From a virus (Duplodnaviria; Caudoviricetes): a DNA stretch of 64,000 bases. The position numbers and the translations under genes were made by a program. Below the pieces are notes generated by a model. The model worked only from the letters and a program-made list of their open reading frames with translations, had not been told where the DNA came from and did not search any database. How positions within the stretch are numbered: position 1 is the first letter of the stretch; each line of letters starts with the position of its first letter. The stretch is from positions 39,139-103,138 of the IMG/VR virus record IMGVR_UViG_3300050333_000165; one strand, 5' to 3'. Positions 864 to 25,508 of this stretch are shown in pieces.

Positions 864-893
864 ACTCCAAATTCTCCCGCTTTCCGTGATTTA
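864..893 (+). promoter_or_regulatory. Putative phage-sigma promoter, copy 1
   Basis: ACTCCAAA-N13-CGTGATTTA upstream of the MTase at 934; same motif and spacing at 1992, 14556 and 25479. Confidence 0.7.
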
Positions 894-933
894 TCTCGTA
901 GAGGACCTATCGCGCCTTTTGACTAGATTATAA

Positions 934-2004
934 ATGCACCCCTTCTTCGAGCAAGACCGCCTGAGCCTGTACTGCGGCGATCTCCGCGAGGTCCTGCCGA
1001 CGCTGCCCGAGGCGTCGGTGGACTTTGTGGCGACCGACGCACCCTACGGCTTGGGCTTCATGGCGAAGGACTGGGACCACGAGGTGCCTGGCCCCGAGTA
1101 TTGGCGGGCCATCGCTCGGGTGTGCAAGCCGGGCGCGATGATGCTGGCCTTCGGCGGCACGCGGACCTACCACCGCCTGACTTGCGCGATCGAGGACGCC
1201 GGCTGGGAGATCCGGGACTGCCTGATGTGGCTGTACGGGCAGGGAATGCCCAAATGCGGCGACATCGGCAAGCTGATCGACAAGGCCAGGGGTGCGAAGC
1301 GCGAGGTTGTCGGCACGAAGCTGGGGCGGCCCGGCTATTCCTTGGCGAATAATGGCCGCACCAACGAGGTTTACGGCGATCTTCACGATCCCGAGGCTGA
1401 ATGCGCGATTACCGCCCCTGCCACGCCTGAAGCGGCGAAGTGGACGGGCTGGGCGATGGCCCTGAAGCCCGCTTGGGAGCCACTCGTTCTGGCGATGAAG
1501 CCAATGGACGACACCATTGCCCACAATGCCCTCACCTGGGGCGTGGCGGGGATGAACATCGACGCTGGCCGGATCGGCACTGAGAGCACGATCCGTACAC
1601 GCGGGGACAGCCTGACCGATGCCGGGTGGGCCAGTACGAACCGCTCGCCCGTGGGCGGCTCGGAGTGTGGACGCTGGCCGGCAAATCTCATGCTCGACGA
1701 TGAAGCTGTCGCTCTTCTCGACGCCCAGACCGGCGGATACGGCGGCGCGAGCCGGTTCTTCTATTGCCCGAAGGCCACGAAGAAAGAGCGCGGGCCGGGC
1801 AATGACCATGCCACGGTCAAGCCATTGGCCCTCATGGAGTATCTGCTCACGCTCCTCTCGACGCCCGATGGCGGCGTGATCCTAGACCCATTCGCCGGCA
1901 GCGGGACCACGCTGCTGGCCGCCAAGCGGCTCGGCCGCCGCTCGATCGGCGTCGAGTTGAGCGAGCACAACTGCGAAATCGCCAAATCGCGACTCCAAAT
2001 GTGA
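934..2004 (+). CDS. DNA methyltransferase, N4C/N6A beta-class (paralog 1)
   Basis: Motif IV variant TDAPY near the N-terminus; HATVKP; ILDPFAGSGTT; IGVEL. Confidence 0.9.
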   Translation: MHPFFEQDRLSLYCGDLREVLPTLPEASVDFVATDAPYGLGFMAKDWDHEVPGPEYWRAIARVCKPGAMMLAFGGTRTYHRLTCAIEDAGWEIRDCLMWLYGQGMPKCGDIGKLIDKARGAKREVVGTKLGRPGYSLANNGRTNEVYGDLHDPEAECAITAPATPEAAKWTGWAMALKPAWEPLVLAMKPMDDTIAHNALTWGVAGMNIDAGRIGTESTIRTRGDSLTDAGWASTNRSPVGGSECGRWPANLMLDDEAVALLDAQTGGYGGASRFFYCPKATKKERGPGNDHATVKPLALMEYLLTLLSTPDGGVILDPFAGSGTTLLAAKRLGRRSIGVELSEHNCEIAKSRLQM

Positions 2005-2021
2005 CGAGTTCTCGTGATTCA
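1992..2021 (+). promoter_or_regulatory. Putative phage-sigma promoter, copy 2
   Basis: ACTCCAAA-N13-CGTGATTCA just upstream of the helicase RBS and ATG 2040. Confidence 0.7.
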
Positions 2022-2039
2022 TCAGAAGAGGAACCTTGT

Positions 2040-24235: not shown

Positions 24236-24973
24236 ATGCACCGATTGATCTGTGGCGACGTTCTGGAAACGCTCCCTGCCTTGGGCACTTTTGCGTGCTG
24301 TTTTCTGGACCCGCCCGACGCGCTCGGACTGAGCCACAACGGATACAAGGACCGGCCGCGCGATGGCTACATGGACTGGCTGGCCCACGTGCTGGAGTCC
24401 ACCATCCCACACTGCGGCGTGACGTGGCTGAGCTACAACGCTATCTGGGACTTGGCAGTGAAGCACTGGGCCTACCGCCACGGAGCCGACCGTCCCGACC
24501 TGGAGATCAAGCCTTTCGTCTGGACGTACACCTTCGGCCAGAACCGGAATTCGGACTGCGGCCCTGGGCACCGGCCGATCTTGCGCTTTCGCCGCAAGGA
24601 TGCGCCGCTCCACCCGGACCAGATCAAGGTGGCATCGTGGCGGCAGTTGAACGGCGACAAGCGCGCGGCAGCAGGCGGGCGCGTGCCCCTGGACGCCTGG
24701 ACCGAGTTCCCGCGCGTCGTGGGCAACGCCAAAGAGCGGCGGGCGTGGCATCCGACTCAGCATCCCGAAGCGCTTGTAGAACGGGCCATCAAGTTGAGCA
24801 CGCGAGAGGGCGACGCCGTGCTTGACCTGTTCTCCGGGACGGGGACCGTGATTCGCGTGTGTAAGCGGATCAACCGAAACACCGTGTCTGTCGAACTGAA
24901 CCCCACCTATTGCGCCGAGATCGCCAAGGAACACGGTCTGAGGCCAGTCTCGGAAGGACTGTGGGCAGCATGA
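24236..24973 (+). CDS. DNA methyltransferase, N4C/N6A beta-class, with DPPD variant
   Basis: FLDPPD; HPTQHP; VLDLFSGTGT; start may be 24197. Confidence 0.8.
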   Translation: MHRLICGDVLETLPALGTFACCFLDPPDALGLSHNGYKDRPRDGYMDWLAHVLESTIPHCGVTWLSYNAIWDLAVKHWAYRHGADRPDLEIKPFVWTYTFGQNRNSDCGPGHRPILRFRRKDAPLHPDQIKVASWRQLNGDKRAAAGGRVPLDAWTEFPRVVGNAKERRAWHPTQHPEALVERAIKLSTREGDAVLDLFSGTGTVIRVCKRINRNTVSVELNPTYCAEIAKEHGLRPVSEGLWAA

Positions 24974-25221
24974 GCCGCACCAGGAAACCGCCGACTGCCG
25001 AAGAACTGGCCGACCGCCGGCAGCACGCGGCCGAACTAGCAGTGCGCCGGGCCTACGAGACCACGACGCCCGCCGAACGTCTCGTGTGCTTGGCGGCCCT
25101 GGACCCGAGCCAGAGACGGCCGCCCAAGCGGCCCTGCATCTGGGACCACGTGGATTTCATGGTGTGGGAAACACAGCAGGACCTTGGCATTACGCCGATG
25201 CGGGCCAGTTGGCCTTGGTGA
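24970..25221 (+). CDS. Hypothetical protein
   Basis: ATGA coupling to the upstream gene. Confidence 0.55.
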   Translation: MSRTRKPPTAEELADRRQHAAELAVRRAYETTTPAERLVCLAALDPSQRRPPKRPCIWDHVDFMVWETQQDLGITPMRASWPW

Positions 25222-25231
25222 GACTGTCGAC

Positions 25232-25504
25232 ATGCTGCGAATCACCATCGAACTGGTCCCTTGGGGGATCGAGTCCCGAGCCAAAATCATTGCAACCGGC
25301 ACAATTGCCAACACCGGAACCGGCACGCCGACCAGCGGCGACTATCGGGTCGAATTGTGCGACGCCGCCGGCCGCCGGTGGAAGAGCGGGCATATCGATG
25401 GCTTCCCGCGGAAGCGGCTGCTGGCCTGGGACCTGTTGTATCGCGCCCTTGAAAATCTGGTCGGAAAACGAAATCGGGACTCCAAAGTCGCGCCGCTTTC
25501 GTGA
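25232..25504 (+). CDS. Hypothetical phage protein
   Basis: MLRITIELVP...IANTGTGT...GDY; coding-like bias. Confidence 0.6.
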   Translation: MLRITIELVPWGIESRAKIIATGTIANTGTGTPTSGDYRVELCDAAGRRWKSGHIDGFPRKRLLAWDLLYRALENLVGKRNRDSKVAPLS

Positions 25505-25508
25505 TTTA
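25479..25508 (+). promoter_or_regulatory. Putative phage-sigma promoter, copy 4
   Basis: ACTCCAAA-N13-CGTGATTTA upstream of AAGGAG and ATG 25554. Confidence 0.7.

What the first reader, a model, noticed from the sequence alone, without database searches (positions are those of the whole stretch)
864..25508. Bipartite motif ACTCCAAA-N13-CGTGATTYA: probable promoter of the element's own sigma factor
Seen: four copies with identical 13-nt spacing at 864, 1992, 14556 and 25479, each shortly upstream of a + strand start (MTase 1, helicase, ligase, duplicated-domain gene). Degenerate copies with the same spacing occur at 9451 (ACTCTAAA-N13-TGCGATTTG) and 30326 (ACTCCGTG-N13-CGTGACGAA, before the recombinase operon). 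Known: alternative sigma factors read bipartite -35/-10 elements at fixed spacing. Inference: this is the cognate promoter of the sigma at 13851-14519, defining a middle regulon that may include the recombinase. It would be a candidate orthogonal sigma/promoter pair.
Basis: partly seen in the sequence, partly recalled or inferred. Interest (0 to 1): 0.72.

Follow-up and report, generated by a model that had tools for sequence, protein, structure and literature searches.

The report
Phage sigma factor's own promoters
A prophage of a Planctomycete carries four identical two-part promoter-like sites in front of its DNA-replication and DNA-modification genes, most likely read by the phage's own divergent sigma factor; this is a new example of a well-known phage strategy, and each related phage has its own version of the site.

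Summary
ACTCCAAA, 13 nt, CGTGATTYA occurs exactly four times (864, 1992, 14556, 25479), all on the + strand, with 0 expected. There are no other copies in the 103-kb provirus record, and only scattered single hits, one per stretch of DNA, in 596 Gb of prokaryote genomes. Each site lies 18-56 nt before a start codon.

The gene at 13851-14519 is a real but divergent sigma-70-family protein, shown by profile, NCBIfam and fold matches. It has sigma-2 and sigma-4 domains and no sigma-3.

In 22 related Planctomycete phages the same 8-N13-9 layout sits at the same gene junctions. It lies before the 25554 gene in 10 of the 10 contigs mapped to window genes, and before the ligase block in 9 of 10. The letters are phage-specific and uniform within each phage. 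In one host MAG, 9 of 10 copies lie on the prophage contig. The geometry fits a -35 hexamer, a 17-nt spacer and an extended -10.

So a phage-specific promoter is well supported. That the phage sigma reads it is the best reading, but it is circumstantial: covariation tests did not rise above phylogeny.

The weak copy at 9451 is supported by orthology. The one at 30326 before the recombinase is not.

This is a new member of a known kind.

The parts
864..893 (+). Promoter-like site 1 (box 1 864-871, box 2 885-893), 40 nt before the ATG at 934 of an N6/N4 DNA methyltransferase
   Evidence: Exact match. It fills the gap after the stop at 862. Methyltransferase Pfam hit. Relatives G007 and G006 have their own version before the orthologous methyltransferase.
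1992..2021 (+). Promoter-like site 2. It overlaps the stop codon (2002-2004) of the methyltransferase and lies 18 nt before the ATG at 2040 of the intein-bearing helicase.
   Evidence: Seven of 10 relatives have a site before the helicase orthologue.
9451..9480 (+). Weaker variant site (4 mismatches), 25 nt before the ATG at 9506
   Evidence: 18.2 bits on the family matrix. Relatives G007, G009 and G003 have a site at this junction.
13851..14519 (+). Divergent sigma-70-family gene (222 aa; sigma-2 about residues 19-116, linker, sigma-4 about residues 154-221)
   Evidence: Profile against PDB: SigF 1l0o_C at E 6e-9, then SigK, SigA and RpoS. AF2 model with pLDDT 82; all listed Foldseek hits at E <= 0.001 are sigma factors. 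NCBIfam sigma models hit 37-38 of 39 family members, all below curated cut-offs. phrog_351 at E 3.5e-6.
14556..14585 (+). Promoter-like site 3, 37 nt after the sigma stop codon and 56 nt before the ATG at 14642 of the ATP-dependent DNA ligase
   Evidence: Nine of 10 relatives have a site in the sigma-ligase interval.
25479..25508 (+). Promoter-like site 4. The TGA inside box 2 is the stop of ORF 25184-25504. The site lies 45 nt before the ATG at 25554 of a two-repeat protein of unknown function.
   Evidence: Ten of 10 relatives have a site 41-58 nt before this gene's orthologue.
27141..27170 (+). Possible extra weak site inside ORF 26710-27813; status open
   Evidence: 21.1 bits on the family matrix. 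tblastn hits of relatives span this stretch, so it is coding.
25554..26159 (+). Two-repeat basic-tailed protein downstream of the best-conserved site; a rival candidate reader of the motif
   Evidence: Two internal repeats. No Pfam, PHROG or Atlas match. AF2 pLDDT only 52. Its distance tracked box 1 in the 10-genome test (r 0.64, p 0.001). It did not reach the 17-genome cut for the 22-genome control, so this was not re-tested.

Best explanation
The four sites, and probably the weaker one at 9451, are promoters of a phage-specific class in a Planctomycete prophage. Box 1 acts as the -35 element. Box 2 acts as an extended -10 element. Transcription runs rightward and should start about 6-8 nt after box 2, giving 5' leaders of roughly 10-50 nt for the methyltransferase, helicase, 9506 gene, ligase and 25554 gene. 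Host core RNA polymerase is directed to these sites by the phage's own two-domain sigma-70-family protein (13851-14519). That gene lies at the end of the operon that starts at the 1992 and 9451 sites, so it would reinforce its own synthesis once first made from some other promoter. Shown: motif statistics, positions, strand, conservation of layout with phage-specific letters, absence from a host genome, and the sigma fold.
For: 1. Statistics. Four exact copies against 0 expected, and none elsewhere in the record.

2. Geometry. If the hexamer inside box 1 is taken as -35 to -30, box 2 spans -15 to -7, which is a 17-nt spacer plus an extended -10. The boxes are AT-rich and the spacer is GC-rich in a 62% GC genome.

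3. Concerted, phage-specific versions. Twenty-two relatives each carry 2-10 near-identical copies of their own 8-N13-9 element. Scans gave 93 hits on the sigma strand and 6 on the other in 1.44 Mb.

4. Orthologous positions. In the 10 contigs mapped to window genes, a site lies before the 25554 gene in 10, the ligase block in 9 and the helicase in 7.

5. Orientation. In G001, sites lie 6-53 nt before same-strand genes. Its two opposite-strand sites sit at the heads of opposite-strand gene blocks.

6. Host test. In a 3.8-Mb Thermoguttaceae MAG, 9 of 10 exact copies of that prophage's version lie on the prophage contig. The off-register control gave 0 in the four viral records searched.

7. The sigma. 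It belongs to the sigma-70 family. It is linked to the ligase in 74 of 80 related viral contigs. It is the most diverged conserved protein, with mean p-distance 0.565 against 0.18-0.51 for the others.

8. Host-type promoters. No TTGACA/TATAAT-type promoter is found in window 1-20000, against 3.8 expected.

9. Covariation. The only sigma segment still tied to box 2 after removing phylogeny is region 2.3-2.4, the -10 reader in this family (partial r 0.20, p 0.02).
Against: There are no transcript data. The covariation evidence is weak: control proteins track box divergence as well as sigma does (r 0.36-0.44), and the residual signal does not survive correction for 30 tests. The sigma-4.2 recognition helix is the most variable helix, yet box 1 is almost constant in the close clade. 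Phages with near-identical 2.3-2.4 segments have different box 2 letters. The sigma falls below every curated Pfam and NCBIfam cut-off. No promoter for the first round of sigma synthesis was identified.
Confidence: 0.62

Rival explanations
1. The sites are promoters, but they are read by a host sigma factor (housekeeping or one of the many alternative or ECF sigmas of Planctomycetes), perhaps helped by a phage activator.
For: No experiment links the phage sigma to the sites, and the covariation tests are inconclusive. Box 1 is conserved across many phages, as expected for a shared host reader.
Against: The version used by the L100 prophage is essentially absent from its host's 3.8-Mb genome outside the prophage contig. 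Box 2 differs completely between phages of closely related make-up. The boxes do not resemble the TTGACT/TATGAT-type promoters that relatives also carry.
Confidence: 0.12
2. The bipartite element is the binding site of another phage DNA-binding protein, for instance the two-repeat protein 25554-26159 with one repeat per box. That protein would act as activator, repressor or nucleoid organiser at gene starts.
For: The best-conserved site precedes this gene in 10 of 10 relatives. The protein has two repeats and a basic tail. Its divergence tracked box 1 in the 10-genome test (r 0.64, p 0.001).
Against: No DNA-binding fold or family could be shown. In the 22-genome control several unrelated proteins track box 1 as well (r up to 0.55); the two-repeat protein itself did not reach the 17-genome cut and was not re-tested there. 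Strict co-orientation with downstream genes and -35/-10 geometry are what a promoter needs and not what an operator needs.
Confidence: 0.13
3. The element works in the opposite direction. The variable box 2 is the -35 read by the variable sigma-4 helix, the constant box 1 is the -10, and leftward antisense transcripts arise at gene ends.
For: The variable sigma-4.2 helix pairs with the variable box 2, and the conserved sigma-2 pairs with the conserved box 1. At one divergent junction of G001 a partial partner site gives a back-to-back layout under this reading.
Against: Nearly all sites lie in head-to-tail gene rows, where leftward starts would only give antisense RNA. The stretch just after box 2 is conserved within each phage, as expected around a start site, whereas the stretch left of box 1 is GC-rich and not conserved.
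Confidence: 0.03
4. The element is not transcriptional. It could be a replication, packaging or recombination site, a methylation target, or an RNA-level signal.
For: The phage encodes five DNA methyltransferase-family genes, ParB-like proteins and recombinases.
Against: The sites are dispersed singly at gene starts, not clustered. They are asymmetric, with a free 13-nt spacer. They are far longer than methyltransferase targets. The spacer shows no conserved pairing that would suggest an RNA structure.
Confidence: 0.05

Closest known systems
Bacillus phage SPO1 gp28 (and gp33/34) with their middle and late promoters
   Same: A phage-encoded sigma-70-family protein redirects host core polymerase to phage-specific bipartite -35/-10 promoters after an early phase run by the host sigma (SPO1 programme as summarised in PMC13401047). 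Sigma and promoters are private to the phage.
   Different: The host phylum and sequences are unrelated. Here only the replication and modification module carries the sites, no temporal data exist, and no second sigma or host-polymerase inhibitor was found.
Coliphage phiEco32 gp36 and Salmonella phage 7-11 sigma with their promoters
   Same: A divergent phage sigma whose promoters were found as an over-represented motif in intergenic regions, with promoter layout conserved between related phages (PMC4331800).
   Different: Those promoters are a single 9-bp -10-like element (consensus given in PMC4331800) without a -35 box, and those phages also encode an anti-sigma. Here the element is bipartite with a fixed 13-nt gap, and no anti-sigma was recognised.
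Cellular group 3 and group 4 (ECF) sigma factors and their orthogonal promoter sets
   Same: Best sequence matches are to SigF/SigG/SigK-type region 2. The two-domain build without sigma-3 resembles ECF sigmas. Probable self-reinforcing expression also resembles many ECF sigmas.
   Different: The protein is below the curated cut-offs of all these families. No neighbouring anti-sigma was found. It is carried by phages, and its promoter letters change from phage to phage.

Membership tests
Sigma-70 family (protein 13851-14519) | Region 2 (core binding and -10 recognition) homology | tested here: met
   A profile of 39 homologues matches SigF 1l0o_C over positions 17-125 at E 6e-9, then SigK, SigA and RpoS. 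NCBIfam SigG/SigK/TIGR02937 models hit 37-38 of 39 members.
Sigma-70 family (protein 13851-14519) | Region 4 helix-turn-helix at the C-terminus | tested here: met
   TIGR02937 aligns residues 36-216 to model positions 2-165. The AF2 model has a C-terminal helical HTH domain, and all listed Foldseek hits at E <= 0.001 are sigma factors. Pfam Sigma70_r4 hits only 4-5 of 39 members.
Sigma-70 family (protein 13851-14519) | Score above curated family thresholds | tested here: not met
   There is no Pfam sigma domain for the window protein. TIGR02937 scores 29.9 bits against a cut-off of 42.9. It is a divergent member by fold and profile, not by curated cut-off.
Sigma-70 family (protein 13851-14519) | Binds core RNA polymerase and confers promoter-specific initiation | not testable with these tools
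   This needs in vitro transcription or pull-down.
ECF (group 4) sigma factors | Only sigma-2 and sigma-4 domains | tested here: met
   In the AF2 model, helices 19-116 and 154-221 are joined by a low-confidence linker, with no three-helix sigma-3 domain.
ECF (group 4) sigma factors | Sequence membership and a cognate anti-sigma next door | tested here: not met
   Sigma70_ECF hits 2 of 39 members weakly. The best matches are group 3 sporulation sigmas. The neighbours are a 165-aa protein with no family hit and the ligase.
Sigma-dependent -35/-10 promoter (the DNA element) | Two conserved boxes at fixed spacing compatible with a 16-18 nt spacer between hexamers | tested here: met
   8-N13-9 is invariant in 4 of 4 window sites and in 88 sites of 22 phages. 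The off-register pattern gave 0 hits in the four viral records searched.
Sigma-dependent -35/-10 promoter (the DNA element) | Upstream of, and co-oriented with, the genes served | tested here: met
   Gaps of 18-56 nt to start codons in the window. 93 hits on the sigma strand against 6 on the other in 1.44 Mb. Both opposite-strand sites of G001 head opposite-strand gene blocks.
Sigma-dependent -35/-10 promoter (the DNA element) | A transcription start a few nt downstream | not testable with these tools
   No transcript data are on hand.
Cognate pair (this sigma reads this element) | Covariation of recognition segments with the boxes beyond phylogeny | tested here: inconclusive
   Region 2.3-2.4 against box 2 gives r 0.34 with p<0.0005, but PolA and the helicase do as well. 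The partial r is 0.20 with p 0.02 after a 7-protein phylogeny proxy, among 30 tests. The sigma-4.2 helix against box 1 gives r 0.08.

The most novel reading that the evidence does not exclude
These Planctomycete phages hold a naturally diversified library of mutually orthogonal sigma/promoter pairs; 22 versions were seen here. All promoters of a genome and the sigma change in concert, so related prophages living in one cell (as the nested siblings of this contig do) can run separate programmes without cross-activation. Specificity would be set partly outside the textbook 2.4 and 4.2 determinants.
Probability: 0.2. Interest if true: 0.7.

Novelty: new member of a known kind. Interest (0 to 1): 0.45.

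Why it matters
Phage-encoded sigma factors with private promoters are a classic way of taking over host transcription, but none has been described for phages of Planctomycetota, where transcription signals are poorly known. The comparative set gives a ready-made map of candidate transcription units for a large family of uncultured phages; sigma and ligase are linked in 74 of 80 related contigs. It also gives about twenty candidate sigma/promoter pairs with clearly different -10-like boxes, which could be tested as orthogonal expression parts. The mismatch between a hypervariable sigma-4 helix and a nearly constant box 1 is a concrete puzzle for anyone studying how sigma specificity evolves.

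Tried and rejected
1. Exact-motif scans of viral contigs and genome contigs gave only single hits, one per stretch of DNA. Three hits in Planctomycetota MAGs shared no genes with the window.

2. A supposed second promoter class in close relatives, beginning with an A-rich word, proved to be the 3' coding end of an inserted gene.

3. A search for the conserved block after box 2 gave only coding noise.

4. Within-locus pair searches were uninformative. The other used greedy-ORF intergenic masks and missed the known sites, because spurious ORFs cover the gaps in this GC-rich DNA. Dyad counting on whole contigs worked instead.

5. Mantel tests on 10 genomes showed no sigma-box correlation. On 22 genomes the correlation was not specific to sigma.

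6. A phage RNA polymerase as reader: no Pfam hit among the large ORFs of the record. The PF00940 genome search was uninformative because its control did not ring.

7. The fold of the two-repeat protein was too poor (pLDDT 52) to search, and the Atlas gave nothing.

It was redone from coordinates.
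Full report
OBSERVATION

The pattern ACTCCAAA, 13 free bases, CGTGATTYA occurs exactly four times in the window, at 864, 1992, 14556 and 25479. All four copies are on the + strand. Dinucleotide-preserving shuffles gave none. Allowing up to three mismatches adds nothing, so the copies form a sharp class rather than the top of a continuum.

The window is the last 64 kb of a 103,138-bp provirus record, and the four copies are the only ones in the whole record. 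The same pattern gave 54 single hits in 596 Gb of prokaryote genomes and 4 single hits in the viral collection, never more than one per stretch of DNA, the scatter expected of chance matches.

Each copy lies in or at the edge of an intergenic gap.
- The 864 copy lies 40 nt before the ATG at 934 of a DNA methyltransferase.
- The 1992 copy lies 18 nt before the ATG at 2040 of an intein-bearing helicase.
- The 14556 copy lies 56 nt before the ATG at 14642 of an ATP-dependent ligase.
- The 25479 copy lies 45 nt before the ATG at 25554 of a two-repeat protein.
- In two cases the upstream gene ends inside the site. The stop at 2002-2004 falls in the spacer, and the stop at 25502-25504 falls inside box 2.

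SURROUNDINGS

Window 1-32 kb is a one-strand replication and modification module. It holds five methyltransferase-family genes, the helicase, two phosphoesterase-family genes (one an exonuclease by PHROG), a ParB-like gene, PolA, the ligase and DeoC. It ends in a large serine recombinase. The 39 kb upstream in the record hold the large terminase subunit and a P22-type coat protein. Relatives sit in MAGs of Thermoguttaceae, Planctomycetaceae and Pirellulales.

THE SIGMA

The ORF at 13851-14519 starts at a GTG behind a GGAGAA ribosome-binding word, and homologues begin at the same residues. It has no Pfam sigma domain. Other evidence identifies it.
- A profile of 39 homologues matches SigF (1l0o_C, E 6e-9), then SigK, SigA and RpoS, over region 2.
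- NCBIfam sigma models hit 37-38 of the 39 members. TIGR02937 aligns residues 36-216 end to end, though below its cut-off.
- An AF2 model (pLDDT 82) is all-helical, and all listed Foldseek hits at E <= 0.001 are sigma factors.
- The model shows a sigma-2 and a sigma-4 domain joined by a loose linker, with no sigma-3.

So it is a genuine but divergent sigma-70-family protein.

RELATIVES

More than 120 protein clusters belong to this sigma family. Thirty-six viral and five genomic loci carry it in the same syntenic module. It lies just upstream of the ligase in 74 of 80 viral contigs that hold a ligase relative.

The exact window motif is absent from the relatives. Dyad counting on whole contigs shows that each phage has its own element with the same 8-N13-9 layout, in 2-10 near-identical copies.

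Examples, given as box 1 / box 2:
- ACTCCAAA / GGCAGTCTA (contig of L066)
- ACTCCAGA / CCGGTCCTA (L062)
- ACTCTAAT / GTTGATTTA (L091)
- AAAACCAG / GCAACTCTC (L078)

Scanning 22 genomes with their own matrices gave 93 hits on the sigma strand and 6 on the other strand in 1.44 Mb. A search seeded from the sigma-ligase gap found a second perfect copy on the same strand in 7 of 55 loci and in none on the other strand.

The sites keep their places. In the 10 contigs mapped to window genes, a site lies 41-58 nt before the orthologue of the 25554 gene in 10 genomes. A site lies in the sigma-ligase interval in 9, before the helicase in 7 and before the 9506 gene in 4. The copy at 30326 falls below 12 bits. 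The recombinase instead has a host-type candidate promoter at 30476-30504.

HOST TEST

The host of the window phage is not in the record, so the test was done on a relative. In the 3.8-Mb Thermoguttaceae MAG that carries the L100 prophage, that phage's version occurs 10 times exactly. Nine copies lie on the 137-kb prophage contig, one on another contig, and none elsewhere. The same words one base out of register gave 0 hits in the four viral records searched. The motif is therefore phage-private and not a host regulon signal.

HOW IT PROBABLY WORKS

If the hexamer inside box 1 is placed at -35 to -30, box 2 covers -15 to -7. That is a 17-nt spacer with an extended -10. In most versions position -11 is an A. 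The boxes are AT-rich and the spacers GC-rich in a 62% GC genome. The 6-12 nt after box 2 are also conserved within each phage, as expected around a start site.

In the AT-richer phage G001, where ORF calls are cleaner, sites lie 6-53 nt before same-strand genes. Its only two opposite-strand sites sit at the heads of opposite-strand gene blocks.

No TTGACA/TATAAT-type promoter is found in window 1-20000, against 3.8 expected. Relatives do carry such canonical promoters elsewhere.

The simplest reading is a class of rightward promoters served by host core polymerase with the phage sigma. The sigma gene lies at the end of the operon begun at 1992 and 9451, so it would reinforce its own expression. 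The promoter that gives the first sigma was not found.

WHO READS IT

All sites of a genome carry the same phage-specific letters at conserved positions, which calls for a phage-encoded reader. The sigma is the natural candidate.
- It is present in every relative examined.
- It is the most diverged of the conserved proteins, with mean p-distance 0.565 against 0.18-0.51 for the others.
- Its variation is concentrated in a loop before helix 2.3-2.4 and in the 4.2 recognition helix, while the core-binding parts are conserved.

Direct covariation could not be shown.
- On 22 genomes, box 2 divergence tracks region 2.3-2.4 (r 0.34, p<0.0005). PolA, the helicase and other proteins track it equally.
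- After removing a seven-protein phylogeny proxy, only region 2.3-2.4 against box 2 stays nominal (partial r 0.20, p 0.02, among 30 tests).
- The hypervariable 4.2 helix shows no link to box 1, which is nearly constant in the close clade.
- Phages with near-identical 2.3-2.4 segments have different box 2 letters.

This leaves room for several rivals:
- a host sigma;
- another phage protein, notably the two-repeat product of 25554-26159, whose fold could not be modelled;
- less likely, a reversed orientation.

No phage RNA polymerase was detected.

COMPARISON AND NOVELTY

The system works like SPO1 gp28 with its middle promoters (PMC13401047). It also works like phiEco32 gp36 and the phage 7-11 sigma, whose promoters were likewise found as over-represented intergenic motifs with a layout conserved between relatives (PMC4331800). 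It differs in four ways: the host phylum, the strictly bipartite element, the lack of a recognisable anti-sigma, and the many phage-specific versions. I file it as a new member of a known kind.

The wider picture is about twenty sigma/promoter versions that change in concert within one phage family. That is the more interesting part, but it rests on inference.

LIMITS

There are no transcript data. 

Noticed in passing
window 13306-13359: A conserved stretch of about 50 nt ends right at the ATG of the 13361 gene. The same element recurs at two places each in relatives (L069 near 9454 and 14879; L100 near 9483 and 15377). It is a second repeated signal, unrelated to the promoter motif, and its role is unknown.
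   Followed up: no
window 30476-30504: This is the only host-type promoter candidate (TTGGCA, 17 nt, TATGCT) found in window 1-34000. It lies 40 nt before the large serine recombinase gene (30544-32280).
   Followed up: partly
L154 17430-17515 (G000 37430-37515, upstream of the window) and L153 3457-3495: A long inverted repeat lies in the divergent gap between a minus-strand DUF5906 gene and a plus-strand ParB-like gene. One arm recurs 34 kb away. It could be an operator or an origin.
   Followed up: no
window 25184-25504 and 25479-25508: The stop codon of a small conserved ORF is the TGA inside box 2 of the 25479 site. At the 1992 site the methyltransferase stop lies in the spacer. Promoters and gene ends are packed on top of each other.
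   Followed up: partly
window 2040-4817: The helicase gene carries an intein with an HNH endonuclease (Pfam Intein_splicing and HNH_3, about residues 214-402 of the listed ORF).
   Followed up: no
relatives: contig of L079 (three sites) and L288 4985 and 4150: Canonical TTGACT/TATGAT-type promoters occur in several near-identical copies beside the phage-specific element. The host-type consensus in these Planctomycete hosts therefore looks conventional.
   Followed up: no
It could be a site of the sibling's own version, or chance.
   Followed up: no
L209-L288 (80 viral contigs): A sigma homologue lies on the same strand within about 2 kb upstream of the ligase in 74 of 80 contigs, down to 46% ligase identity. 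The sigma scores fall to 17-60 bits, so the sigma-ligase pair marks a much larger phage family.
   Followed up: partly
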